In this document: positions 8,853 to 62,835 of the stretch, piece by piece
Layout of the letters: every line of letters starts with the position of its first letter
Position numbering within the stretch: the stretch's first letter is position 1
Source: Thermodesulfobacteriaceae bacterium
GTDB lineage: Bacteria; Desulfobacterota; Thermodesulfobacteria; Thermodesulfobacteriales; Thermodesulfobacteriaceae
NCBI GenBank assembly: GCA_025062245.1
Contig: JANXAD010000003.1
Location: 16,476 to 80,475, forward strand
Direction: 5' to 3'
Length of the DNA stretch: 64,000 nucleotides
Translations under genes and position numbers: made by a program
Notes under the pieces: generated by a model
Seen by the model: the letters and a program-made list of their open reading frames with translations, nothing else
Databases searched by the model: none
Told to the model about the DNA's origin: nothing

Positions 8853-9074
8853 AACTTAGACTCCTTATGATTAATTTTTTACTTTTTAAATAATTTAATT
8901 TTAAAAAGATTTTTTTCAACTATTTTATTTTAAACACAAATAATACCATATTCTGGCAAAATTTCATGAGGAAGATTAAATTGGTGAAAAGCTAACCTTT
9001 TCCACCATTTTTGCCAAGAAATTAAAATAATTTCTACCTTCCCATTCTCTGTAAAGAACATCTAATAAGATCGA

Positions 9075-9237
9075 GACCTTGGCAAAATTTAATGGATTAA
9101 TAAAGATTTTAAGATAAAACTACGGAAAAAAATAAGGAGTTTCTCAAGTGTTAGGGCTTGGTGAGAAAGCTAAAAAGGGGCAAAGAAAAATGAGTAAACC
9201 TTTAGTTCCAACCTGCTTAAGGAGGTATTGGCATATA
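9075..9237 (+). repeat. Dispersed intergenic repeat family R, copy R1
   Basis: Shares TTTAAGATAAAACTAC, TCTCAAGTGTTAGGGCTTGGTGA, CCTTTAGTT and GGTATTGGCATATA with copies at 10784, 25646, 59232 (rc) and 62640 (rc); aligned by eye. Confidence 0.75.
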
Positions 9238-9242
9238 TTGCA

Positions 9243-10253
9243 CTAATCTAAACTATAGCCAAAATTAAGAAGAGTTTTTTCAGGATCTAAAGAAATTACT
9301 AATTCCCTAAGAAGTCTTCTTAGTTTTTCTCTATCTTGTTCTGCTTCAATCTCTCTCTTTAACACCTCAGGCACCCTTCCAAGCTTAACCTCTACCACCT
9401 CAAGCACCATCTCTTGAGCTTCTCTTAATAATCCCTCTTGTATCCCCTGCTGTAATCCCTTTTGTAATCCCTCCTGTAATCCCTGCTCATATTTTCTCTC
9501 TGAATAGGTCTTCAATTCAAACTCCATCCTCTCACCCCCTACCTCCCTTAATTTAATCCACACTTCCTCCTCGTCAAGCCCCTTCTCCTTAGACACTATC
9601 AACAAAAATAACTCCACATACCATCTCTCCCTCTCACTTAACTTCCCCACCACCTCCACAAACCTTACTACCCCCCTTAATAACTCCTCCAGAGGTCTAT
9701 CAAGACTCCTAAGAAGATAAAGATAGGCATACACCACACTATAAAGCTCAATCCTTTTCAAAAGCTCCTCTCGGTTAAGTCTCACCAAGTCAAGAAGTAA
9801 CACCCTGTAGTTTAGAAAATAAGACTTAATTTCAGGAGGTATCTCAAAAAGCTCCACAAACTCAATGGGGTAAAGCCAAGGCTTCTCTCCGTGATAAAAA
9901 ATAAAAGGCAACACAGGAATAGGTTTTGAGCCTTCTTTGAGGGCTTTTTCAAAAAGAGAGGAAATATAGTTTAGGATTTGAGCATAGACTGAGACATCTT
10001 GATAGGACTTGTGTTCAAGTAAAATGTAGAGGTGAAGAGGTTTTCCAAGGAGGGGAACTTGGACGATAATGTCAGGAAGAAGGCGCTTTTCTTTAGAGAG
10101 AGAAATCTGTTCTTCAGGGACGAAAACAAGTTGGGAGAGGTCTAAGTGAGAGAGAATCTCCTTGGGTAAGAACTCTTTAAGAAAGACTTTAAGATTTTCA
10201 GGGTCCTTAAGTATAGCCTTAGCATAAAGGTCGTAGGGCTTCGGTTCAGACAT
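9243..10253 (-). CDS. Rpn family recombination-promoting nuclease / putative transposase (PD-(D/E)XK, transposase_31-like)
   Basis: N-terminal PYDLYAKAIL, LPDIIVQV...LYILLEHKSYQD, PVLPFIFYHGEKPW; C-terminal (Q/E)EGL repeats followed by a small helical domain. Confidence 0.9.
   Translation of the reverse strand: MSEPKPYDLYAKAILKDPENLKVFLKEFLPKEILSHLDLSQLVFVPEEQISLSKEKRLLPDIIVQVPLLGKPLHLYILLEHKSYQDVSVYAQILNYISSLFEKALKEGSKPIPVLPFIFYHGEKPWLYPIEFVELFEIPPEIKSYFLNYRVLLLDLVRLNREELLKRIELYSVVYAYLYLLRSLDRPLEELLRGVVRFVEVVGKLSERERWYVELFLLIVSKEKGLDEEEVWIKLREVGGERMEFELKTYSERKYEQGLQEGLQKGLQQGIQEGLLREAQEMVLEVVEVKLGRVPEVLKREIEAEQDREKLRRLLRELVISLDPEKTLLNFGYSLD
9429..9486 (-). repeat. 12-bp tandem repeat (~5 units) coding EQGL-QEGL-QKGL-QQGI-QEGL inside the Rpn gene
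   Basis: Plus-strand units AATCCCTCCTGT / AATCCCTTTTGT / ATCCCCTGCTGT. Confidence 0.85.
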
Positions 10254-10491
10254 AAAAGGAAGTATAAAGGAGATTTGTTAAGTAAGCAAGAGGAGACTTT
10301 TCTGACTTACCTTTCCTTAGGCTTAAAACAAAGTTTCCTTAGGCAAGATAAAATACCTGATAAAGATACTTGTTAAACTTAAGTCTTCCTTCTTCTAAGC
10401 TTTCACCTTAAAGTAAACCTGTTGACTTTTTTATAGGGCTTATAGAGCTTAAGTTGGTAGGGAAGCTTATTTACCAGGGCAAATCCTTTTT

Positions 10492-10605
10492 CGTGTCATC
10501 ACTTATTCATCAAGGCAGAGTTTCTCACAGTTAAAGAAGTTAAAACGGTAGTTTTTTATCATTATTAAGTCGCAATCCCTTATTCATCAGGGAGGGGTTT
10601 CTTAC
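10492..10605 (-). CRISPR. Orphan minimal CRISPR-like unit: two 37-bp repeats (one degenerate) and one 40-bp spacer; no cas genes in the window
   Basis: 10569-10605 GTCGCAATCCCTTATTCATCAGGGAGGGGTTTCTTAC; the copy at 10492-10528 matches 22 of the last 27 nt (CTTATTCATCAAGGCAGAGTTTCTCAC). Internal hairpin TCCCT-N8-AGGGA. The minus strand ends GGGATTGCGAC, like ATTGAAAC-type repeat ends. Confidence 0.6.
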
Positions 10606-10783
10606 GAAAGGCTCCTCTTTCACTTATCTTAATAAATACCTATTTAGTCAAGGGAGGTTTTTATAACAAAAAAATAAAATCTCCCTCCTTAATTAAATCA
10701 AAAATCTTACATAAAGTCAAAAACTTACACAAAAAGCAAGGGTCTTAGATAAAAAGCTCTTTTTACTTAAGGGGACCCCTGCC

Positions 10784-11006
10784 CTTTAAACAATTCAAAG
10801 CTCTAAAAAATTTAAGACAGAATTCCAGAAAAACCAAGAGAAGGGTATCTCAAGGTTTAGGACTTGGTGAGGAAGTGAAAAGGTAGTAAGAAAAGAGAGG
10901 TAAGACTTTAGTTAAAAACTTTTTAGGAAGTATTGAAATATAAAAAGAAGCAAGAGATTAAATTGGGAGGCAGATAGGAGATAGTAAAGAGAGAATCTTA
11001 GAAAGT
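10784..11006 (+). repeat. Dispersed intergenic repeat family R, copy R2
   Basis: TTTAAGACAGAATTCC...TCTCAAGGTTTAGGACTTGGTGA...CTTTAGTTAAAAACT...ATAGGAGATAGTAAAGAGAGA, colinear with the reverse complement of 59232-59485. Confidence 0.75.
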
Positions 11007-11190
11007 AAAAAAGGATTTCAAGTTAGTAGGGAGTTAAGAGAAGGTTTTAAAAGAATTTTAGGAGGTTTGATTAATATTGAAAATCTTAAAAATGAAATTT
11101 AGAAACACCAAAGGAATTTTTAGACCTAATTTTTCGAAAGGTTCAAAAAATAATACGCAATCTCAGATTCTGTGGTCTCATAAAAAAATC

Positions 11191-12389: not shown

Positions 12390-15300
12390 GTGATTTCTCG
12401 TTTCTTTATAGAAAGACCGAGACTTTCTGCAGTTCTTTCCATTATTATCTTTTTGATGGGAATTTTAGCTATGCAGGGTCTTCCTATTAAAGAATATCCT
12501 GCTCTTACACCTCCTCAGGTGGTGGTGACTGCAGTATATCCTGGAGCAGATGCAGAAACCTTAGTCAACACCGTAGCCGCGCCCCTTGAAGAAGCTATCA
12601 ATGGTGTTCCTAACATGATTTATATGACAAGTATTGCTTCCTCAAGTGGGATTTTAAGTATTAATGTTTTTTTTGAAGTAGGCACAGATATAAATGTAGC
12701 CAAAATGGATGTAAACAATCGAGTTCAAACAGCCCTTCCCAGACTTCCTGAAGAAGTAAGAAGACAGGGACTTCAAGTGAGAGAGCGTTCTCCTGATTTG
12801 GTAAGTGTGGTTACCTTTTTTTCCGAGGGCCAAAAAAGAACTCCAGTAGAAATTGCAAACTACATCATTTTAAACATACTTGAGGACCTTAAAAGAGTTC
12901 CTGGAGTAGGAGATGTGATAGTTTTTGATGAAAAGAGATATTCCATACGGGTTTGGCTAAAACCGGATAAGTTAGCTAAATTTAACTTAACTCCTTTAGA
13001 GGTCTATTCAGCTATCTCCAGACAAAATCAACAATTTTTTGGAGGAGGAATTGCTCAAGAACCCCTCTCTTCAGAACCTACCTTTTCCTATGTAGTAAAA
13101 GGAGAACCCAGACTTCAAAGAGTTTCTCAATTTGAAGATATCATCCTTCGCACCCATCCCGATGGTTCTGCCCTCAAACTAAAAGATGTAGCTACCATTG
13201 AGCTTTCCTCAGAACACTTTAACCGAAACTCCTTCTTTAAAAAACAACCTGTTATTCCTGTGGGAATTTTTTTAGCCCCTGGAGCTAATGCCTTAGATGT
13301 AGCTAAAAATGTAGATAAAACCTTAAAAGAACTCTCTAAGAGGTTTCCTTCTGACCTCAAATATTTTTATCCCTATCAGCCTACGGTTTTTATAGAAGAG
13401 TCTATAAAAGAAGTCATAATCACCTTTATCATAGCGGTAATTCTTGTAATCTTAGTAGTTTACTTTTTCTTAGGTAGTCTTAAAGCCACCCTTATTCCCA
13501 TTTTAGCTATCCCTGTTTCTATCATAGGAAGTTTCGCCGGGCTTTATGTTTTTGGTTTTTCCATTAATCTTTTAACTCTCTTTGGACTGATCTTAGCTAT
13601 CGGACTGGTGGTGGATGATGCTATCATTGTTATTGAAAATGCAGAAAGAATAATAAGAGAGGAGAGGCTTCCTCCTAAATTGGCCACTATCAAGGCTATG
13701 GAAGAAATAACTAGTCCTATTATAGCTATAGTTTTAGTTCTATCAGCAGTGTTTATTCCTGCTTCTTTTACAGGAGGCTTTACAGGAGTTTTTTACCGAC
13801 AGTTTGCTATTACTATTGCTATTTCTATGGTTTTATCAGGAGTAGTAGCCTTAACCCTAACTCCAGCACTCTGTGCTCTCTTTTTAGAGGAAAAGGAAGT
13901 TAAACCCCTTTTACCCGTAAGAATTTTTCAAAAAATTTTTGAAGCCTCTCGTAAGCTCTTTTTAAAAGGAGCTGAATTCTTTATAAGGTTTTTTCCCATA
14001 GGAGTTTTTATCTTTTTGATTATTCTTCCTCTCACCTATTTTCTGATAAAAAGGCTTCCTACTGCTTTAGTTCCTTTAGAGGATAGAGGGTCTCTTTTAG
14101 TCTTTGGTTACTTACCTCCAGGCTCTTCTTTAAAGAGAACTTCAAAAGTGGTAAGTGAGATAGAAAGTCTTTTAGAAAAAACACCTGAAATAAAAGAGTG
14201 GGTAGCGGTATCTGGTCTTGACTTACAAACCTTTGCTTTTAGAAGTGACGCTTGTGTAGGCTGGATTCGTTTAAAGGATTGGGCTGAAAGAGAAAAAAAG
14301 GAAAGCTCCTCCTTTGCTTTGTCTGAAAGGTTGTCCAAAGCATTGGCTTTTAACAGAGAAGCTTTAATCTTCGTAGTTAATCCTCCTCCTATTATAGGAA
14401 TGAGTATTACGGGAGGTTTTGAACTCTATGTTCAAGACCGAATCGGTGGTTCTATTTCTGATTTAGCTAAGTATGTAAGTGAATTAGTCTTTAAAGCTAA
14501 TCAGAGACCTGAACTTATGGCAGTTCGAACTACCCTTAATCCTAATGTGCCCCATTATAAAGTGACAGTTGACAGAGAAAAAGCTATGGCTTATGAGGTT
14601 GAAGTTGAAGATATCTATAAAACCCTAGCGATGACCTTAGGTAGTTATTATGTAAATGACTTTAATCTTTACGGAAGGGTCTTTCATGTGAATATGCAAG
14701 CAGAAGGTGAATTTAGAGACGATTTAAGAGACTATTCCTATCTTTTTGTTCGTTCTAAAAGGGGTGAGCTGGTTTCTTTAAGTGCTTTAATAAAAATAGA
14801 AAAGCTTTCTGACGCCTTAGTTACTGAAAGATTTAATATGTTTAATGCTGCCAAAGTAACTGGAGAGCCTAAACCTGGTTATACTTCAGGAGATGCTATC
14901 AAGGCTATTTTAGAAGTAGCTCAAGAAGTATTACCTCCTGGTTATACCATTGCTTGGTCCGGGACCTCCTATCAAGAAATGAAAGCTCAAGCTAAAACCG
15001 GTTGGGTTTTAGCCTATGCAGTTCTTTTTATCTTTCTAATTTTAGTGGCTCTTTATGAAAGCTGGACCTCTCCTTTAGCTATTATTTTTTCTGTTCCTTT
15101 TGCCATCTTTGGAGCTTCCTTAGGATTAAATCTTTTCAGACTGGAAAATGATGTATACTTTCAAGTAGGCCTTCTTACCCTTATTGGACTTTCAGCCAAA
15201 AATGCTATTTTAATTGTAGAATTTGCTGAAGAAAGGTTAAAAAAATATAAAATGAGTCTGTTAGAGGCTACCTTAGAGGCTGCCCGACTAAGATATAGAC

Positions 15301-16916
15301 CTATTATGATGACTTCTTTTGCCTTTATAGCCGGAGCTCTTCCGTTGATGTTTAGCAGTGGAGCTGGGGCCAATAGCAGAAATCTGATCGGAACCACTGT
15401 GGTAACCGGAATGCTTTTGGCAACCCTTTTGGGAATCTTTTTTATTCCTCTTTTTTATTACTTAGTGGTTAAAGTCAGAGAAAAATTCAAATTTCCTTTT
15501 AAAACCAATGGAAAGAAACTGTTCTTTCTTATTTTTTTGTTTATCTTTAAGGCTTGTAGTTTAGCACCAGAATTTAAAAAACCTGAAGTAGATTTGCCTT
15601 CTGAGATAAGAGTTCCTAAGGTGGAAAATACTACTTCAGTTAATCTTTACTGGTGGAAGGAGTTTAAGGATCCCTTTTTGGAAGAGCTAATAGAGGTGGC
15701 TTTAAAAAATAACGAAGATCTTCTTATGGCAGGAGCTCGAGTAGACCAAGCTTTAGCCTTACTTCAGGCCACAGAAACTGAGCTTTATCCTTCCTTTTAT
15801 TACTCAGGAGAAGTCCTAAGACAAAGGTTATCTGAGGAGACTCTTAATCCCTTAGGGGGAAGAACTTATACCACCTTTTCTCTTTCTTCGCTGGTTTCTT
15901 ATGAGCTTGATCTCTGGGGAAGACTTAAAAATCAACAAAAAGCAGCTCTTTCTAATTATTTAGCTACTAAGGCTGGAAAAGAAGCTTTACAAATTTCTAT
16001 CATCTCCTCAGTAGCTACTACTTACTTCGAACTTATATCCTTAGAAAAACAAATTAAAATAGCTCAAGATTTTTTAGAAAAACATAGGCATATCTATGAA
16101 TTTAGAAAACTTCAATTTAAAAATGGTCTTATAGATGAACTGGTAGTAAAGCAAGCTAAGGCTGAATATGAAGCTACTCAAATTCTTTTAGAGGATCTTA
16201 AAAATAGAAAGGAAAGAGTGAAAGCTCTTTTAGCCTTACTTACAGGGCTTAGTCCTAAGGAACTTTTTGAAAAGGAGATTAAAATTAAAGAGGAATTTCC
16301 TAAGCCCCTTCCTATTCCTGCTATGCTTCCTTCGGAGATTCTTCAAAGAAGACCAGACTTAGTGGAAGCTGAAGAAAGGCTTAAAGCTGCTAATTTTGAA
16401 GTAGGAGTTGCCCGATCTTTATATTTTCCAAGAATTTTTTTAACTGGAGGAATAGGCTTTCAAAGTGAAGAGTTGGCTAATTTTATCAGGGGTTCAGCAA
16501 CTGTCTGGAACTTAGGAATATCTTTGATAGGTCCACTTTTTGACTTTGGGCGTATTAAAAGTGAGATAGAATTTAAAGAGGCTCAAAAAAGGGAGGCTCT
16601 TGGGCAATATCTTAAAACGGTTAAGACTGCCTTTAGGGAAGTTTATGAAGCCCTTTCTAACTTGGAGGCTTCTTATGAAAAACTTTCTTCCCAAATAGCT
16701 CAAGTTGAAACCTTAGAGAGGGTGTTAGAACTTTCTGAAAAAAAATATACCAGAGGTTTAGTAAATTATTTAGTAGTTCTTGATGCTCAAAGAAATCTTC
16801 TTAAAGCTAAACTTAACTTAGTATCCTTAGAATTTGAAAGACTTAAAAATTATGTCTTTTTGTATAAAGCTTTAGGAGGCGGATGGGATAGATCTCTTGT
16901 TTTCTCAAACTTTTAG
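12390..16916 (+). CDS. HAE1-type RND permease (AcrB/MexB-like) fused in frame to a complete OprM/NodT-type outer-membrane factor
   Basis: MISRFFIERP start; proton-relay motifs VVDDAIIVIEN, SAKNAILIVE, RYRPIMMTS intact. After TM12 a hydrophobic stretch ends in KAC (Cys1056, nt 15555), followed by WWKEFKDPFLEELIEVALKNNEDL, YELDLWGRL, RRPDL..AE and LYKALGGGW. Confidence 0.9.
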   Translation: MISRFFIERPRLSAVLSIIIFLMGILAMQGLPIKEYPALTPPQVVVTAVYPGADAETLVNTVAAPLEEAINGVPNMIYMTSIASSSGILSINVFFEVGTDINVAKMDVNNRVQTALPRLPEEVRRQGLQVRERSPDLVSVVTFFSEGQKRTPVEIANYIILNILEDLKRVPGVGDVIVFDEKRYSIRVWLKPDKLAKFNLTPLEVYSAISRQNQQFFGGGIAQEPLSSEPTFSYVVKGEPRLQRVSQFEDIILRTHPDGSALKLKDVATIELSSEHFNRNSFFKKQPVIPVGIFLAPGANALDVAKNVDKTLKELSKRFPSDLKYFYPYQPTVFIEESIKEVIITFIIAVILVILVVYFFLGSLKATLIPILAIPVSIIGSFAGLYVFGFSINLLTLFGLILAIGLVVDDAIIVIENAERIIREERLPPKLATIKAMEEITSPIIAIVLVLSAVFIPASFTGGFTGVFYRQFAITIAISMVLSGVVALTLTPALCALFLEEKEVKPLLPVRIFQKIFEASRKLFLKGAEFFIRFFPIGVFIFLIILPLTYFLIKRLPTALVPLEDRGSLLVFGYLPPGSSLKRTSKVVSEIESLLEKTPEIKEWVAVSGLDLQTFAFRSDACVGWIRLKDWAEREKKESSSFALSERLSKALAFNREALIFVVNPPPIIGMSITGGFELYVQDRIGGSISDLAKYVSELVFKANQRPELMAVRTTLNPNVPHYKVTVDREKAMAYEVEVEDIYKTLAMTLGSYYVNDFNLYGRVFHVNMQAEGEFRDDLRDYSYLFVRSKRGELVSLSALIKIEKLSDALVTERFNMFNAAKVTGEPKPGYTSGDAIKAILEVAQEVLPPGYTIAWSGTSYQEMKAQAKTGWVLAYAVLFIFLILVALYESWTSPLAIIFSVPFAIFGASLGLNLFRLENDVYFQVGLLTLIGLSAKNAILIVEFAEERLKKYKMSLLEATLEAARLRYRPIMMTSFAFIAGALPLMFSSGAGANSRNLIGTTVVTGMLLATLLGIFFIPLFYYLVVKVREKFKFPFKTNGKKLFFLIFLFIFKACSLAPEFKKPEVDLPSEIRVPKVENTTSVNLYWWKEFKDPFLEELIEVALKNNEDLLMAGARVDQALALLQATETELYPSFYYSGEVLRQRLSEETLNPLGGRTYTTFSLSSLVSYELDLWGRLKNQQKAALSNYLATKAGKEALQISIISSVATTYFELISLEKQIKIAQDFLEKHRHIYEFRKLQFKNGLIDELVVKQAKAEYEATQILLEDLKNRKERVKALLALLTGLSPKELFEKEIKIKEEFPKPLPIPAMLPSEILQRRPDLVEAEERLKAANFEVGVARSLYFPRIFLTGGIGFQSEELANFIRGSATVWNLGISLIGPLFDFGRIKSEIEFKEAQKREALGQYLKTVKTAFREVYEALSNLEASYEKLSSQIAQVETLERVLELSEKKYTRGLVNYLVVLDAQRNLLKAKLNLVSLEFERLKNYVFLYKALGGGWDRSLVFSNF

Positions 16917-25637: not shown

Positions 25638-25645
25638 CTTTAAAA

Positions 25646-25710
25646 GACCTTGGCCAAACTTAATGGTTTAAAGAAGATTTTAAGATAGAATTACAGAAAA
25701 AACAAGGAGT
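25646..25710 (+). repeat. Dispersed intergenic repeat family R, truncated copy R3
   Basis: GACCTTGGCCAAACTTAATGGTTTAAAGAAGATTTTAAGATAGAATTACAGAAAAAACAAGGAG versus R1 GACCTTGGCAAAATTTAATGGATTAATAAAGATTTTAAGATAAAACTACGGAAAAAAATAAGGAG. Confidence 0.75.
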
Positions 25711-28304: not shown

Positions 28305-28441
28305 TATTTATAAAATAATATAATATTTAAAATATTATCTTGCAAGACAATGTCACCACCTTTTGGTTACAAATAAAAAACAATTAGGTGACAAGAAATT
28401 TTTTAAGAATGTGTTATTCTAAAAATTATTAGGGAGGTGTG

Positions 28442-29152
28442 ATGGATAATAAAATAAAACTAAATTTACTTATTAAAATTAAAAACCAGCTTTTAGCTGA
28501 GGCTTTTCTTTTTTATCTTAGTAACTCCCAATCTCTTAAAAATAAATTTGAATTTCAAATTGATTTAAAGCCTCAAAATGAGAGAATTTATGAGATAGTA
28601 ATTTTTGATAAAAGTACTCTAAGGGAAAGTAAGCCTGAGGAAAGTAAGACTGAGGACTATTTTTCTTCCAAAAAACTTCTTTTAGACGACGGTTCTTTGG
28701 AAGAGGAGATCGTTTTTTTATTTTTATATTATAGACTTTCAGGAGTTCTTTCTTCAGATATTTCCTTATCTCTTTTTGGTAAATGTCTTGAAGTAGTGTT
28801 AAGGGGTGAAATTTGGGTGAGTAATCATTTAGTTAAAAAAATTTGCGAAAATTACGACAGTTTTTTTACTAAAAAGGGGCTTGAAAATTTAACCTTTAAG
28901 GAAAGGGAAGTTGTTAAGCTTATTTGTGAAGGACTTAGTAATAAGGAAATAGCCTTAAGACTTTTTATTTCAGAACAAACTGTTAAAACTCACTTAAACC
29001 ATATTTTTAAAAAAACCGGGGCTAAAAATCGAAATCAATTAATTAAAATGTATTTCTATGCCATAGGTAAAGAGAGGGTCCAGGTTAGTTCTGAAGATCA
29101 AATTCAAACCTCAAGACCTATCAAAAAGCTTTTAAAGCTTAAAAGAAGTTAA
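28442..29152 (+). CDS. csgD: CsgD-like LuxR/NarL-family regulator (degenerate receiver + HTH)
   Basis: VVLRGEIWVS..LV, LTFKEREVVKLICEGLSNKEIALRLFISEQTVKTHLNHIFKK; directly upstream of the curlin genes. ATG 28442 or GTG 28439 after AGGGAGG. Confidence 0.72.
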   Translation: MDNKIKLNLLIKIKNQLLAEAFLFYLSNSQSLKNKFEFQIDLKPQNERIYEIVIFDKSTLRESKPEESKTEDYFSSKKLLLDDGSLEEEIVFLFLYYRLSGVLSSDISLSLFGKCLEVVLRGEIWVSNHLVKKICENYDSFFTKKGLENLTFKEREVVKLICEGLSNKEIALRLFISEQTVKTHLNHIFKKTGAKNRNQLIKMYFYAIGKERVQVSSEDQIQTSRPIKKLLKLKRS

Positions 29153-33133: not shown

Positions 33134-33853
33134 ATGCATCGTGAAGCTCAGAAAAGTTATGTTATTCATAATTATTATGACCTTATTCGAGCTTTAAAGG
33201 AAAATCCTGAATGGTTAGAGGAATTAAGAAAGTTAATCTTAACTCATGATTTACTTGAGCTTCCCAAAAAATTTGAGGAATTTCTAGAAAAGGAATTTAG
33301 ACCTTTGAAAAGTGATGTAGAAACTTTAAAAAGTGATGTAGAGATTTTAAAAAGCGATGTAAAAACTTTGAAAAGTGATGTAGAAACTTTAAAAAGGGAT
33401 GTAGAGATTCTTAAAAGGGATGTGGGGGTTTTAAAAGTGGATGTAGCCAACCTTAAGGGAGACAATTTTGAAAGAAAGGTTAGAGAAAGGGCTCCTGCCT
33501 TTTTTGGAAAACATTTCAAAAAAGTGAAAGTTATTCCTATTGAAGAATGGGCAGATAAATTAGATGAGACTCAAGAAGCTGGAATAATTTCTTCTGAAGA
33601 AAGAAAGGAAGCCTTAAATTTAGACCTTCTAATTAGATGTAAAAGGTGGGAAGACACGGAGGAAATCCTTTTGGCAGTTGAGGCCTCTTACACCGCAGAT
33701 GATAAAGATGCAGTAAGGGCTCTGAAAAGAGCAGAGATTTTCTTTAAAGTTTATCAAATAAAAACCATTCCTGTGGTAATCGCTAAGGAACTCTCTCCTG
33801 TCTTAGAAGAGAAATATCCTGAAGTTCTTTTTATCAGAGTTGAGGCAGAATAA
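33134..33853 (+). CDS. Heptad-repeat coiled-coil protein with a C-terminal restriction-endonuclease-like domain (family common in thermophiles)
   Basis: DLIRALKENPEWLEELRKLIL..DLLELP N-terminus, LKSDVET-type heptads, C-terminal DLL...LAVEAS..AD..DA.RA..RA. Confidence 0.6.
   Translation: MHREAQKSYVIHNYYDLIRALKENPEWLEELRKLILTHDLLELPKKFEEFLEKEFRPLKSDVETLKSDVEILKSDVKTLKSDVETLKRDVEILKRDVGVLKVDVANLKGDNFERKVRERAPAFFGKHFKKVKVIPIEEWADKLDETQEAGIISSEERKEALNLDLLIRCKRWEDTEEILLAVEASYTADDKDAVRALKRAEIFFKVYQIKTIPVVIAKELSPVLEEKYPEVLFIRVEAE
33305..33463 (+). repeat. 21-bp tandem repeat (~7.5 units) coding LKSDVET/LKRDVEI heptads
   Basis: Units such as TTGAAAAGTGATGTAGAAACT and TTAAAAAGTGATGTAGAGATT. Confidence 0.92.
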
Positions 33854-59172: not shown

Positions 59173-59231
59173 CTTTTAAAAAACCTCCTTTTTACTTTTT
59201 AGAAACCTTTGAAAATTTCGTTCTAATTTAA

Positions 59232-59485
59232 ACTTCCTAAGCCTCTCTCTTTGCTATCTCCTATCTCCCCCTATTTAACCCCTACATCCACTCATCTCAA
59301 ACTCCTTAATCCCTTTCCTTATATGCCCATACCTCATAAACCAGTTTTTAACTAAAGGCGGACCTATTTTCCCTTGCTTCTTTTTCGCTTCTTCACCAAG
59401 CCCTAAACCCTTGAGAAACCTCTTTGTTTTTTTTTGTAATTTTATCTTAAAATCTTCTTTAAACCATTGAATTTTGTAAAGTTCT
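59232..59485 (-). repeat. Dispersed intergenic repeat family R, copy R4 (longest)
   Basis: Fills most of the tatD-aspS gap; the reverse complement aligns with R1, R2 and R3, and the plus strand aligns with 62640-62835. Confidence 0.8.
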
Positions 59486-59487
59486 TA

Positions 59488-60273
59488 TTAAATAGGAAAT
59501 TTGCTTTCTAAGTTAAAAAACTTTACCGTATTATAAAAAGTTTTTTCAACTACCTCCTCTAAGGAAGCACTTTTTAGTTGAGCTATTTTTTCAACGATAT
59601 AAATCAAAAAGGAAGGTTCATTTCTTCGTCCTCTTACTGGATGGGGTGCCAAAAAAGGGCAATCGGTTTCCACTAAAAGCCTATCTAAAGGTAAATATTT
59701 CACAGCCTCTCTTAATTCTAAGGCCTTATCAAAGGTTATTACTCCTGGAATAGAAATTAGACCTCCTAAATCGCAAATCCTCTTAGCCATGGTTTTATTA
59801 AAAGTATAACAGTGAAACAAAAATTTTAAATCAGAATAGTTTTTCAAAAAGTCTAAGACCGAGCTCCAAAAATTTTCATCTCCTCTTAAGTGAAGAACCA
59901 CAGGTTTATGATGTTTTTTAGCTAAGCTTAATTGATGTTCAAAGTGCTTAAGTTGTACCTCTTTGGGAGAATATTCCTTTACCCAATCCAGTCCAATTTC
60001 TCCTAAAGCACAGGCTAAACCTAAGTTTCTTTCTAAAAGTTGATAATCTTTATCCGTAAGACTTTTTACCTCGTGGGGATGGAAACCAATTACGGCACTT
60101 ATGAAATCTGGATAGGCTTCTTGCAATTCCAAAGCTTTTTGATTAGTTTTAGAATTAATTCCCACTACCAAGGTGTGCACCACTCCTTTTTCCTTGGCTC
60201 TTTTTATAACTTCTTCCAGATCTCTTTTAAAATCAGGAAAATTTAAATGGGAGTGACTGTCAATAAGTTTCAT
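59488..60273 (-). CDS. tatD: TatD family DNase
   Basis: LIDSHSHL, GFHPH, GEIGLD, LHLR, HCY, ETDCPFLAP..RG..NEP. Confidence 0.93.
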   Translation of the reverse strand: MKLIDSHSHLNFPDFKRDLEEVIKRAKEKGVVHTLVVGINSKTNQKALELQEAYPDFISAVIGFHPHEVKSLTDKDYQLLERNLGLACALGEIGLDWVKEYSPKEVQLKHFEHQLSLAKKHHKPVVLHLRGDENFWSSVLDFLKNYSDLKFLFHCYTFNKTMAKRICDLGGLISIPGVITFDKALELREAVKYLPLDRLLVETDCPFLAPHPVRGRRNEPSFLIYIVEKIAQLKSASLEEVVEKTFYNTVKFFNLESKFPI

Positions 60274-61852: not shown

Positions 61853-62635
61853 TTAAATTTCCTTAGACTTTATTTCTTCCCAAATTTGGTCTAATTCTTT
61901 TAGGCTTAATTTTCCCCAGTTTAAATTTCTCTTCTTTAATTCCTCTTCTAAAAGGTTAAAACGCCTCTCGAACTTGTTTAAAGCTAATTTCAAGGCTTCC
62001 TCAGGATTAAAATTAAGCTTTCTTGAAAAATTGGCTATGGTAAAAATTAAATCTCCTATTTCTTCCTTTAATTTCTCCTTTTTTCCAGTTTTTAAAAGTT
62101 CTTTTATTTCTTGAAGTTCTTCCTCAAATTTTTCTAAAACCTCTTCTGGTTTTTCCCAGTCAAATCCTACTCTCCCTGCTCTTTCTCCTATACGGTATGC
62201 CCTTTGTAGGGCTGGTAAAGACTTAGGAATATTTCCCAAGACTGAACTTCCCTTTCCCTCTTTCTCTTTTATTTTTTGCCAATTAGTTACTACTTCTTCT
62301 GCAGATTTTACTTTTTCTTCTCCAAAAACATGGGGATGTCTTTTAATCATCTTCTGGGAGGTATAGTAAAGAAGGTCTTCCAACTTAAAAAAGTTTTTTT
62401 CATCATAAAGATAAATTATAAAAAGGACCAAAAAAAGAAGATCCCCAAGTTCTTCTCTAATTCCATTAGGCTCTCCCTTTTCTATAGCCTCCAAAACCTC
62501 GTAAGTTTCCTCTATAAGATATTTTTTTAAGGTTTCAGGGGTCTGTTTTTTATCCCAAGGACATCCCTTTTCTCCTCTTAAAGTTTTAATAATTTCCCAA
62601 AAAGTCCAAAAGTCTACTTTTTCTCGTAAAAACAT
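61853..62635 (-). CDS. mazG: Nucleoside triphosphate pyrophosphohydrolase MazG
   Basis: LRGEKGCPWDKKQT, EETYEVLEAI..EELGDLL, RHPHVFG, EEIGDL. Confidence 0.95.
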   Translation of the reverse strand: MFLREKVDFWTFWEIIKTLRGEKGCPWDKKQTPETLKKYLIEETYEVLEAIEKGEPNGIREELGDLLFLVLFIIYLYDEKNFFKLEDLLYYTSQKMIKRHPHVFGEEKVKSAEEVVTNWQKIKEKEGKGSSVLGNIPKSLPALQRAYRIGERAGRVGFDWEKPEEVLEKFEEELQEIKELLKTGKKEKLKEEIGDLIFTIANFSRKLNFNPEEALKLALNKFERRFNLLEEELKKRNLNWGKLSLKELDQIWEEIKSKEI

Positions 62636-62639
62636 TTAA

Positions 62640-62835
62640 CTTTTAAAAGACCTTTTAAAAATTCGGTCTAATCTCACTACTAAGGCTCTTTCTTTTTCTT
62701 ATCCTATCTGACCCCAATTTAATCCCTCCATCCTTATCTCAAACCCCTTAATCCTTCTTCCTATAGGCCCAATACCTGATAAACCAGTTTTAACTAAAGG
62801 CGGACCCATTTTTTCCTGGCTTCTTTTTCACTTTT
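62640..62835 (-). repeat. Dispersed intergenic repeat family R, copy R5
   Basis: ATACCTGATAAACCAGTTTTAACTAAAGGCGGACCCATTTT (62773) versus ATACCTCATAAACCAGTTTTTAACTAAAGGCGGACCTATTTT (59330). Confidence 0.82.

What the first reader, a model, noticed from the sequence alone, without database searches (positions are those of the whole stretch)
10492..10605. Single-spacer orphan CRISPR-like unit upstream of, and co-oriented with, a nuclease toxin gene
Seen: one intact 37-bp repeat with a 5-bp hairpin, a 40-bp spacer (minus strand TTAATAATGATAAAAAACTACCGTTTTAACTTCTTTAACT) and a second repeat. On the minus strand the second repeat decays at its 3' end, as leader-distal repeats do, and AT-rich sequence lies on the leader side. 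It is about 240 bp upstream of rpn on the same strand, with no cas genes in 64 kb. Established: mini-arrays can yield regulatory crRNA-like RNAs (CreA/CreR type) that let Cas complexes repress toxin or cas promoters. Inference: either a decayed array or a regulatory guide linking CRISPR-Cas to Rpn. I found no obvious spacer match in the adjacent promoter by eye.
Basis: partly seen in the sequence, partly recalled or inferred. Interest (0 to 1): 0.7.

Follow-up and report, generated by a model that had tools for sequence, protein, structure and literature searches.

The report
Relic CRISPR mini-array riding with rpn
A real but decaying one-spacer CRISPR array of a type III repeat family lies upstream of an rpn nuclease gene in a hot-spring Caldimicrobium, because the two were copied around the genome together as a 1.6-kb block; nothing suggests that the array regulates the gene.

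Summary
There is an intact 37-nt repeat (10569-10605, minus strand, ending in ATTGCGAC), a 40-nt spacer, a decayed second repeat, an AT-rich leader, rpn 238 nt downstream on the same strand, and no cas gene in 64 kb.

The repeat is a genuine CRISPR repeat. Its 20-nt core is identical in multi-spacer arrays of several phyla that are flanked by Cas1, Cas10/Cmr2, RAMP proteins, Csm6 and Cas6, which points to type III. A 12-spacer array in Thermosulfurimonas F29 has a 31/37-identical repeat.

The mini-array is part of a block about 1.6 kb long (9237-10871): leader, repeat, spacer, decayed repeats, rpn promoter, rpn. The same block sits at a second, unrelated locus in a MAG of the same species. It is 85% identical there but carries an unrelated spacer.

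In a sister species the rpn paralogue lies directly downstream of cmr4-cmr5-cmr6, with spacer-less repeat remnants in between. Metagenome contigs show further deletion variants.

Neither spacer matches its own rpn promoter, rpn itself, the window, or the phage collections searched. rpn has its own invariant promoter.

Verdict: this is the trailer end of a type III-B-family array, dispersed and eroding together with a duplicated rpn segment. The CreTA/CreR-like regulatory reading is not supported.

The parts
10569..10605 (-). Intact leader-proximal CRISPR repeat R, GTAAGAAACCCCTCCCTGATGAATAAGGGATTGCGAC. It has a 5-bp stem, an 8-nt loop and the 3' handle ATTGCGAC.
   Evidence: Its 20-nt core is identical in multi-spacer arrays next to type III cas genes. 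It matches the Thermosulfurimonas F29 array repeat at 31/37 and the paralogous copy in L056 at 35/37. Best Rfam hit is CRISPR-DR32 at 22 bits, below the gathering score of 48.
10529..10568 (-). Single 40-nt spacer, TTAATAATGATAAAAAACTACCGTTTTAACTTCTTTAACT.
   Evidence: It is single-copy in the metagenomes even at 80% likeness. It is identical in contigs of two studies (2014 and 2021), and the 31 nt covered by MAG contig L052 are also identical. No target was found.
10492..10528 (-). Decayed second repeat R' (26/37 to R). The hairpin and the 3' handle are lost.
10455..10491 (-). Third unit R'', strongly decayed and abutting R' with no spacer. Its core reads CCCTGGTAAATAAG, followed by CTTCCCTACC.
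   Evidence: Read from the alignment. Metagenome variants that join R[1-27] directly to CTCCCCTACC... are what recombination between R and R'' would produce. On sequence similarity alone the unit is weak: it did not appear at up to 7 mismatches, and I count 9/21 mismatches in the core.
10606..10871 (-). AT-rich leader-like region upstream of R. It is conserved in the paralogous copy, and its distal part overlaps E-element copy B.
   Evidence: Window 10871->9237 aligns to L056 9385-10969 at 85% over 1658 nt. Metagenome depth here is 5-12 times that of the spacer segment. No strong sigma-70 consensus was found.
10254..10454 (-). rpn 5' region. It holds an invariant promoter-like TTGCTT (10284-10289), 17 nt, TATACT (10261-10266), which ends 7 nt before the ATG. 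This suggests a leaderless mRNA.
   Evidence: The last ~50 nt before the ATG are nearly invariant in the window, L056 and L057. Homology with the cmr-adjacent copy L064 starts at 10292. The promoter reading is my inference; the scan did not list it.
9243..10253 (-). rpn, an Rpn/YhgA-like PD-(D/E)XK nuclease of 336 aa. It contains a 12-nt (4-aa) tandem repeat at 9429-9487.
   Evidence: PF04754 at E = 1.5e-29. Sources name the homologues 'Rpn family recombination-promoting nuclease/putative transposase'. TRF finds period 12, 4.9 copies. Paralogues differ by 4, 8 or 20 aa in this zone.
9237..10871 (-). The whole duplicated block: leader, R, spacer, R', R'', promoter, rpn.
   Evidence: Its ends are defined by the alignment to L056. 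No terminal inverted repeats were found.
9074..9237 (+). E-element copy A, the truncated left part of a dispersed intergenic repeat. It abuts the rpn stop codon.
10784..11006 (+). E-element copy B (whole copy about 10760-11070), at the leader-distal end of the block.
   Evidence: Other copies lie at 59180-59500(-), 62635-62833(-) and 25639-25710(+).

Best explanation
This is a genuine but eroding orphan CRISPR mini-array of a type III (III-B-like) repeat family. It consists of a leader, one intact repeat, one spacer and two decayed terminal repeats.

It sits next to rpn because of shared history, not function. In this Caldimicrobium lineage an rpn gene lay at the trailer end of a type III-B array. 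When the rpn-containing segment was copied to new chromosomal sites, it took the neighbouring array with it. Rpn regions are known to move with variable ends and without transposon hallmarks.

Each copy has since lost spacers and repeat parts through repeat-repeat recombination. That left one spacer here, a different one in the paralogous copy, and none in others.

rpn is transcribed from its own conserved promoter directly in front of the ATG.

If the leader is still transcribed and Cas6 and Cmr are supplied in trans, the unit could still yield one crRNA: the 8-nt AUUGCGAC tag plus the spacer. That would be residual immune memory, not control of rpn.

Shown: the anatomy, the repeat-family membership, the duplicated block, the cmr-adjacent paralogue, the deletion variants and the absence of self-targets.

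Inferred: the order of events, the promoter, and any present-day activity.
For: (1) Repeat family.
- The 20-mer CCCTGATGAATAAGGGATTG occurs in arrays of up to 51 repeats in Planctomycetota, Vulcanimicrobiota, Deltaproteobacteria and Spirochaetales MAGs.
- ORFs beside those arrays include 11 Cas1, 13 RAMPs, 5 Cas10/Cmr2 palm domains, 5 Csm1_B, 5 Csm6 HEPN and 2 Cas6.
- Thermosulfurimonas F29, which has III-B and I-B clusters, carries a 12-spacer array whose repeat is 31/37 identical.

(2) Duplicated block.
- Window 10871->9237 aligns to L056 9385-10969 at 85% over 1658 nt. L056 has different neighbours (RNase R, Lon/ClpXP). It comes from MAG GCA_026415555.1, which also holds the window's own flanks at 99.7-100%.
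- The L056 copy has R at 35/37, a 39-nt unrelated spacer and a decayed R'.

(3) Link to type III-B.
- In the sister species (L064, L065) the order is cmr4-cmr5-cmr6 (TIGR02580, TIGR01881, TIGR01898), then 776 nt holding three abutting spacer-less repeat remnants, then an rpn paralogue with 83% amino-acid identity.
- One remnant, U3, resembles R beyond 0 of 500 shuffles.
- A MAG of the window's own species carries a partial cmr6, cut at the contig end, which suggests a III-B locus.

(4) Erosion series.
- L057 has two abutting degenerate units and no spacer.
- Metagenome contigs show an R x R' fusion, R[1-27] joined to the sequence after R'', R joined to the UTR at 10345, and R-13 nt-R.

(5) No long array. 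The repeat is found in only 5-7 contig contexts per run, at 7-19 times the flank depth.

(6) The rpn promoter zone is invariant across copies.

(7) Literature. rpn regions are gained and lost like insertion sequences, but with variable ends and no TIR or TSD. No TIRs were found here.
Against: - R is kept at 35/37 between the two paralogous copies while the surrounding leader is about 85% identical. The spacer is identical in samples from 2014 and 2021. Both could hint at selection, but 37 nt is too short to test.
- The two copies carry unrelated spacers. That needs either an ancestral multi-spacer array or later acquisition or recombination. I could not tell these apart.
- The full genome was not available, so a long R-type array or an adjacent cas locus elsewhere cannot be excluded.
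- The metagenome variants cannot be assigned to one genome.
- No transcript data exist.
Confidence: 0.68

Rival explanations
1. It is a live single-spacer orphan array. The leader drives a pre-crRNA and Cas6 cuts the intact repeat. The type III-B Cmr complex encoded elsewhere uses the crRNA against a virus or plasmid of the hot-spring community. Proximity to rpn is incidental.
For: - The leader-proximal repeat keeps its hairpin and 8-nt handle.
- Type III crRNAs need only the upstream repeat for their tag (established knowledge).
- A partial cmr6 is present in a MAG of the same species.
- The paralogous copies carry different spacers.
- The spacer is stable across samples and years.
Against: - No protospacer was found in IMG/VR, GenBank phages, the window or the fetched loci.
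- No extra contig matches the spacer segment in the same metagenomes.
- Sister copies are plainly decaying.
- In the same-species MAG, cmr6 is followed by an apparently truncated CARF gene, which hints at a degenerating III-B locus.
- There are no RNA data.
Confidence: 0.17
2. It is a repeat mimic (RNA anti-CRISPR, Racr/solitary-repeat-unit type) or an MGE-borne mini-array. The rpn block behaves as a selfish element. It carries a promoter-proximal repeat that sponges Cas6/Cmr, or a spacer aimed at competing elements.
For: - The repeat travels with a multi-copy, dispersed block.
- Variants with a solitary repeat and no spacer exist.
- Solitary repeat units downstream of promoters on MGEs are proven anti-CRISPRs.
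Against: - The commonest solitary variants are truncated after position 27 and cannot form the hairpin that Cas6 binding would need.
- The carrier is chromosomal, with no viral or plasmid genes around it.
- Rpn proteins are described as host defence toxins, not as MGE genes.
- Mobility of the block is not shown.
Confidence: 0.08
3. It is a CreTA/CreR-like regulatory guide. The crRNA-like RNA would direct a Cas effector to repress rpn, or a cas promoter, making the cell addicted to CRISPR-Cas.
For: - The layout is a mini-array with degenerate repeats, co-oriented with a toxin-type gene.
- Degenerate mini-CRISPRs do regulate toxin and cas promoters in type I and V-A systems.
Against: - Spacer complementarity to the whole block is at chance level in both copies.
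- The spacers differ while the promoter is invariant.
- Some copies have no spacer.
- The unit is not in or beside a cas operon.
- The repeat family is type III. The CreR paper reports only type I and V-A effectors.
- In E. coli, Rpn toxins already have an intragenic protein antitoxin.
Confidence: 0.04
4. It is part of an RNA-guided Rpn system. The Rpn nuclease, alone or with Cmr, would use the adjacent crRNA to direct recombination or cleavage, in the manner proposed for Rpn genes next to nuclease-dead Cas12a or Cas3-less Cascade.
For: - Rpn-CRISPR adjacency recurs: in this block, in the cmr-adjacent paralogue, and in 40 published loci with dead Cas12a or I-E Cascade near Rpn-like genes.
Against: - The association here traces to one ancestral block within one genus.
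- No rpn lies near arrays of this repeat family elsewhere.
- No repeats lie near distant Rpn relatives.
- The repeats decay freely while rpn stays intact.
- No self-target or homing site was found.
Confidence: 0.03

Closest known systems
Orphan or degenerate CRISPR arrays of type III-associated repeat families (36-37-nt repeats ending in ATTGAAAC, ATTGAGAC or ATTGCGAC)
   Same: - Repeat length, hairpin and 8-nt 3' handle.
- Spacer length.
- An AT-rich leader.
- Decay of the leader-distal repeat.
- A repeat core identical to that of real arrays.
   Different: - Only one spacer.
- No cas genes within 64 kb.
- The array is embedded in a duplicated 1.6-kb block with rpn and exists in several eroded paralogous versions.
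Rpn (YhgA-like, COG5464) toxin with intragenic antitoxin genes (Zhong et al. 2023, PMC10400941)
   Same: - An N-terminal PF04754 nuclease domain.
- A C-terminal zone of 4-aa repeats whose number varies between copies.
- Multi-copy and patchy distribution.
- Copies move with variable ends and no TIR or TSD.
   Different: No CRISPR-derived sequence is mentioned next to rpn in the parts of that paper I read. Here the moved segment includes a leader and repeats.
CreTA / CreR degenerate mini-CRISPRs (bioRxiv 10.1101/2023.03.10.532045)
   Same: A two-repeat, one-pseudo-spacer layout with degenerate repeats, close to a toxin-type gene.
   Different: - No complementarity to any nearby promoter.
- Not inside a cas locus.
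- A type III repeat family rather than type I or V-A.
- The spacer is not conserved between copies.
Solitary repeat units / RNA anti-CRISPRs (Racr; Camara-Wilpert et al. 2023, PMC10651486)
   Same: Repeat-like units away from cas genes, carried on a multi-copy element. Some variants have a single repeat.
   Different: - The carrier is chromosomal, not viral or plasmid.
- The window copy has a spacer.
- Most solitary variants are truncated and cannot fold.
Putative Rpn-associated non-Tn7 CASTs (Rybarski et al. 2021, bioRxiv 10.1101/2021.08.16.456562)
   Same: An Rpn-family gene next to CRISPR components, with short arrays.
   Different: - Those loci encode a dead Cas12a or a Cas3-less Cascade beside Rpn, and some have self-targeting spacers.
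- Here no effector is adjacent, the repeat family is type III, and there is no self-target.

Membership tests
CRISPR array | Two or more direct repeats of 23-47 nt separated by a unique spacer of similar length | tested here: met
   R and R' match at 26/37 with 77-nt spacing and a 40-nt spacer. Chance expectation is 0.0015 per window.
CRISPR array | The repeat belongs to a family used in multi-spacer arrays next to cas genes | tested here: met
   The 20-nt core is identical in arrays of up to 51 repeats. Their flanks hold Cas1, Cas10/Cmr2, RAMPs, Csm6 and Cas6. The F29 12-spacer array repeat matches at 31/37.
CRISPR array | Match to a curated Rfam CRISPR-DR model at its gathering score | tested here: not met
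   The best hit is CRISPR-DR32 at 22.1 bits against a gathering score of 48, E = 0.43. Rfam covers only some repeat families.
CRISPR array | cas genes adjacent, or at least present in the genome | tested here: inconclusive
   There are none in the 64-kb window. A partial cmr6, cut at the contig end, is present in MAG GCA_033580415.1 of the same species. The sister species has cmr4-6. The full genome was not available.
CRISPR array | Transcription and processing into crRNA | not testable with these tools
   No RNA run holds the region.
CreTA / CreR regulatory mini-CRISPR | The pseudo-spacer is partly complementary to the promoter of the regulated toxin or cas gene | tested here: not met
   The longest exact run to the whole block is 10 nt in both copies, reached by 38/200 and 26/200 shuffles. 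There are no hits in 10254-10491.
CreTA / CreR regulatory mini-CRISPR | Located within or beside the cas operon of a DNA-binding effector (type I or V-A) | tested here: not met
   No cas genes lie in the window. The repeat family is type III. The CreR paper reports only type I and V-A systems.
Racr / solitary repeat unit | A single repeat-like unit that keeps the repeat's structure, behind a promoter, on a virus or plasmid | tested here: not met
   The window unit has a spacer and a second repeat. The context is chromosomal housekeeping genes. Solitary variants in the metagenomes are truncated at position 27.
Rpn toxin with intragenic antitoxin | N-terminal PD-(D/E)XK Transposase_31 domain | tested here: met
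   PF04754 at E = 1.5e-29, residues 6-173. The motif D61...E80-x-K82 is visible in the translation, read by eye.
Rpn toxin with intragenic antitoxin | A hypervariable run of four-amino-acid repeats in the C-terminal part | tested here: met
   A 12-nt tandem repeat at 9429-9487. Paralogues differ by 4, 8 and 20 aa there. The feature is described.
Rpn toxin with intragenic antitoxin | An internal start producing RpnS; toxicity of the long form | not testable with these tools
   M243 lies about 14 residues before the repeats in this copy, but the paralogues have Val there. This is suggestive only.
Insertion sequence / transposon | Defined ends with terminal inverted repeats and target-site duplication | tested here: not met
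   There are no inverted repeats at 9237 and 10871. The flanking direct E copies are only 73% alike and belong to a dispersed family with at least 5 copies.
Type III toxin-antitoxin (ToxIN-like) | Tandem RNA repeats without spacers, directly upstream of an endoribonuclease toxin that processes them | tested here: not met
   The repeats are CRISPR-derived and separated by a spacer here. The toxin is a PD-(D/E)XK DNA-nuclease homologue.

The most novel reading that the evidence does not exclude
The leader-repeat(-spacer) cassette could be a functional, selected part of a dispersed Rpn module in Caldimicrobium. It might work in either of two ways. It could supply a guide or decoy RNA that couples the Rpn toxin/defence gene to the type III-B Cmr system in trans. 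Or it could serve as a recombination handle through which rpn segments enter and leave CRISPR loci. Either would tie in with published Rpn genes beside nuclease-dead Cas12a and Cas3-less Cascade, and would point to a wider Rpn-CRISPR partnership.
Probability: 0.1. Interest if true: 0.75.

Novelty: new member of a known kind. Interest (0 to 1): 0.3.

Why it matters
- It gives a concrete account of how orphan mini-arrays can arise far from cas genes: by hitch-hiking on a duplicated rpn segment. rpn sitting next to a repeat can therefore be inherited rather than functional.
- It adds one more case of Rpn genes beside CRISPR components, here cmr4-6 in the sister species. That recurrence may deserve a systematic survey.
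- It warns against reading any repeat-spacer-repeat next to a toxin as a CreTA-like circuit without finding a target match.

Tried and rejected
- **JGI metagenome scan for the 33-nt repeat:** no hit.
- **JGI metagenome scan with the Rpn alignment:** only three relatives at 30-34% identity, none with repeats nearby.
- **IMG/VR scans:** the full window spacer and halves of both spacers gave no hit.
- **GenBank phages:** only chance-level partial matches, E >= 0.6.
- **RNA runs:** none available.
- **rpn look-ups:** an exact look-up of the window's rpn product failed. Three paralogue look-ups returned contigs that break inside rpn, so they have no upstream sequence.
- **cas typing:** the first loci chosen to type the cas genes had none within 8 kb. 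Typing succeeded only with the pooled ORF set.
- **The 'empty site' joint 9132->11004:** I first read it as a strain lacking the block. I now treat it as ambiguous. The E element has at least 5 copies, so a contig from another E copy could align in this split way.
- **Joints 10871/10874->9237:** these are explained by an L056-like rpn-E junction, not by circles or tandem copies.
- **E copies A and B as a target duplication:** rejected. They are 73% alike, and A is closer to copy C.
- **A PADLOC 'CARF3' hit in the window:** traced to 45 C-terminal residues of ORF 28439-29152, so not a cas gene.
- **Leader similarity to the region downstream of cmr6 in L064:** none.

Full report
**Observation.**
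- On the minus strand, 10605->10569 reads GTAAGAAACCCCTCCCTGATGAATAAGGGATTGCGAC.
- A 40-nt spacer follows at 10568->10529.
- A second repeat follows at 10528->10492. It matches the first at 26 of 37 positions and has lost its 3' end.
- At up to 11 mismatches, that second copy is the only other match to the repeat in the window on either strand. A match this good is expected 0.0015 times per window by chance.
- The intact repeat folds into a 5-bp stem with an 8-nt loop. The decayed one does not.
- rpn (9243-10253, minus strand) matches PF04754 at E = 1.5e-29 and starts 238 nt further on.
- None of 54 window ORFs hits a core cas model. One PADLOC 'CARF3' hit covers only a 45-residue C-terminal stretch of ORF 28439-29152.

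**Is it a CRISPR repeat?** Yes.
- The 3' end ATTGCGAC is the usual 8-nt handle of type I/III repeats. This rests on established knowledge.
- A scan of one genome per species with the 20-nt core CCCTGATGAATAAGGGATTG found 51 loci. About half are arrays of up to 51 repeats of 36-37 nt ending in ATTGAAAC, ATTGAGAC or ATTGCGAC. They come from Planctomycetota, Vulcanimicrobiota, Deltaproteobacteria and Spirochaetales MAGs.
- The remaining single hits share a different, conserved flanking sequence (...GGATTGGAAG). I take them to be coding sequence that matches by chance.
- Among 103 ORFs flanking those arrays there are 11 Cas1, 13 RAMPs, 5 Cas10/Cmr2 palm domains, 5 Csm1_B, 5 Csm6 HEPN and 2 Cas6. 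No type I signature family appears among the 25 listed. The family therefore goes with type III systems.
- A published genome of the related Thermosulfurimonas F29, which has III-B and I-B clusters, holds a 12-spacer array. Its repeat, GTCGCAATCCCTTATTCGTGAGGGAAAGTTTTCTCAC, is 31/37 identical to the window repeat read on the plus strand.
- Rfam gives only a sub-threshold CRISPR-DR32 hit.

**Organism.** The rpn homologues carry the names Caldimicrobium sp. and Thermodesulfobacteriaceae. The region occurs in hot-spring metagenomes. Two MAGs, GCA_033580415.1 and GCA_026415555.1, hold the window's flanks at 99.7-100% identity. Their contigs break inside rpn or inside the mini-array.

**The key result: a duplicated block.**
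- The closest rpn paralogue (P0002, 90% identical by BLASTP) lies on an 81-kb contig of GCA_026415555.1, between RNase R and a Lon/ClpXP cluster. That neighbourhood is unrelated to the window's.
- Window 10871->9237 aligns to this locus at 85% over 1658 nt. The alignment runs through the leader, the repeat (35/37), a decayed second repeat, the rpn 5' region and rpn, and ends a few bases after the stop codon.
- The 39-nt spacer in that copy is unrelated to the window spacer.
- A third locus (L057, another Caldimicrobium species) shares only the part from the decayed repeat to rpn. It has two abutting degenerate units and no spacer.
- There are no terminal inverted repeats.
- Both copies are flanked by pieces of a dispersed intergenic repeat, which I call E. 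It has at least five copies in the window and pairwise identity of 69-80%. It is therefore not a target duplication.

**Link to cas genes.**
- In the sister species a further rpn paralogue (P0003) lies 776 nt downstream of cmr4-cmr5-cmr6. This is seen on two independent MAG contigs with identical intergenic sequence.
- About 264 nt before that rpn there are three abutting, spacer-less, degenerate repeat units. The third, GTAAAAGCGCAACCCCTCCCGCCTTAAAGAGGATTGCATG, resembles the window repeat better than any of 500 shuffles.
- A MAG of the window's own species has the 3' part of cmr6, 91% identical at DNA level. It is followed by what looks like a truncated APE2256-type CARF gene.
- The simplest history is that rpn once sat at the trailer end of a III-B array, and that copies of the rpn segment carried parts of that array to new sites.

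**Metagenomes.**
- In Logan contigs of four hot-spring runs, the rpn body has depths of hundreds to thousands against about 19 for the flanks. It is therefore highly multi-copy in the community.
- Even at 80% likeness, the spacer and decayed repeat stay at single-copy depth (14.5 and 11.1). The intact repeat reaches about 10-19 times that depth and the leader 5-12 times, but in only a handful of contig contexts. I see no sign of a long array with this repeat.
- The contexts form an erosion series:
  - a fusion of R and R' (10491->10575);
  - R positions 1-27 joined to the sequence that follows the third unit R'' (three contigs in X1);
  - R plus 7 nt joined to the rpn UTR at 10345;
  - two repeat cores 13 nt apart;
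  - a leader lacking 10603-10722.
- All of these are what repeat-repeat recombination would produce. I cannot assign them to a single genome.
- The window's spacer is identical in contigs from a 2014 study and a 2021 study. The 31 nt of it that MAG contig L052 covers are also identical.

**Does the spacer regulate rpn?** Nothing suggests it.
- Against its own 1.6-kb block, each spacer's longest exact match is 10 nt. That is reached by 38 of 200 shuffles for the window copy and 26 of 200 for L056.
- No match longer than 13 nt exists in the window or in any fetched locus.
- No match was found in IMG/VR. GenBank phages gave only chance-level hits.
- rpn has its own promoter-like element, TTGCTT-17 nt-TATACT, ending 7 nt before the ATG. 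The surrounding ~50 nt are nearly invariant in three copies. The promoter assignment and the leaderless mRNA are my inference.
- Per the paper read here, CreA/CreR circuits rely on partial spacer-promoter complementarity, a PAM and type I or V-A effectors, and sit in cas loci. None of this holds here.

**rpn itself.**
- It looks like a typical Rpn toxin gene. It has the PF04754 domain and a 12-nt tandem repeat (9429-9487) encoding GLQx units.
- Paralogues differ there by 4, 8 or 20 residues. This matches the hypervariable four-residue repeats of the intragenic antitoxin RpnS.
- That paper also reports that rpn regions are gained and lost like insertion sequences, but with variable ends and without TIRs or TSDs. 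That fits what is seen here.

**Is the link general?** No.
- No Rpn homologue lies within the 8-kb loci of arrays of this repeat family in other phyla.
- The three distant Rpn relatives found in JGI metagenomes have no repeats nearby.
- A published survey did find Rpn-like genes next to nuclease-dead Cas12a or Cas3-less Cascade. Recurrent Rpn-CRISPR adjacency therefore remains worth a systematic test. Here it traces to one ancestral arrangement within one genus.

**Verdict.**
- The feature is real and correctly described.
- It is a relic one-spacer array of a type III-B-like repeat family, dispersed and eroding with a duplicated rpn segment (confidence about 0.68).
- It may still yield a crRNA used in trans (about 0.17).
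- Decoy, regulatory and RNA-guided-Rpn readings are unlikely.
- Interest is modest. It is a tidy case of how orphan mini-arrays arise, and a caution against inferring CreTA-like circuits from layout alone.

Noticed in passing
window 9074-9237(+), 10760-11070(+), 59180-59500(-), 62635-62833(-), 25639-25710(+): A dispersed intergenic repeat ('E element') of about 175-320 nt, with 69-80% pairwise identity. It often ends in an AGGAGG ribosome-binding site just before a gene. It flanks the rpn block on both sides here and in L056. There is no Rfam match.
   Followed up: partly
window 9429-9487: A 12-nt tandem repeat inside rpn that encodes four-residue GLQx units. Paralogues differ by 4, 8 or 20 residues here, and the metagenome contigs have many loose ends here. 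This is the same hypervariable zone described for the intragenic antitoxin RpnS.
   Followed up: partly
window 10261-10289: A promoter-like TTGCTT-17 nt-TATACT ending 7 nt before the rpn ATG, with no Shine-Dalgarno sequence. It is nearly invariant in all copies and suggests a leaderless rpn mRNA.
   Followed up: no
L066 531-659 (MAG GCA_033580415.1, same species as the window): Directly after cmr6 there is a 42-codon ORF, MINKEFHIISTGVSILTN.... It looks like the N-terminus of an APE2256/Csx1-type CARF protein and then stops, so it may be a truncated type III accessory gene.
   Followed up: partly
L064 3208-3320 / L065 (between cmr6 and rpn): Three abutting degenerate repeat-like units with no spacers between them, each ending in GGGGATTG or GGATTGCATG. 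A similar spacer-less pair lies upstream of rpn in L057.
   Followed up: partly
window 12390-16916: An RND efflux pump (AcrB family) fused to a C-terminal outer-membrane-factor (OEP/TolC-like) domain, 1508 aa. This is an unusual single-polypeptide arrangement.
   Followed up: no
window 33288-33446: A 21-nt tandem repeat (about 7.7 copies) inside ORF 33134-33853, which would give a seven-residue protein repeat.
   Followed up: no
window 10288-10300 and 10607-10619: A 13-nt inverted repeat (12/13) that pairs the sequence just upstream of the intact repeat with the rpn -35 region. Both arms are conserved in L056. Matches of this size are common in the region, so it may be chance.
   Followed up: no
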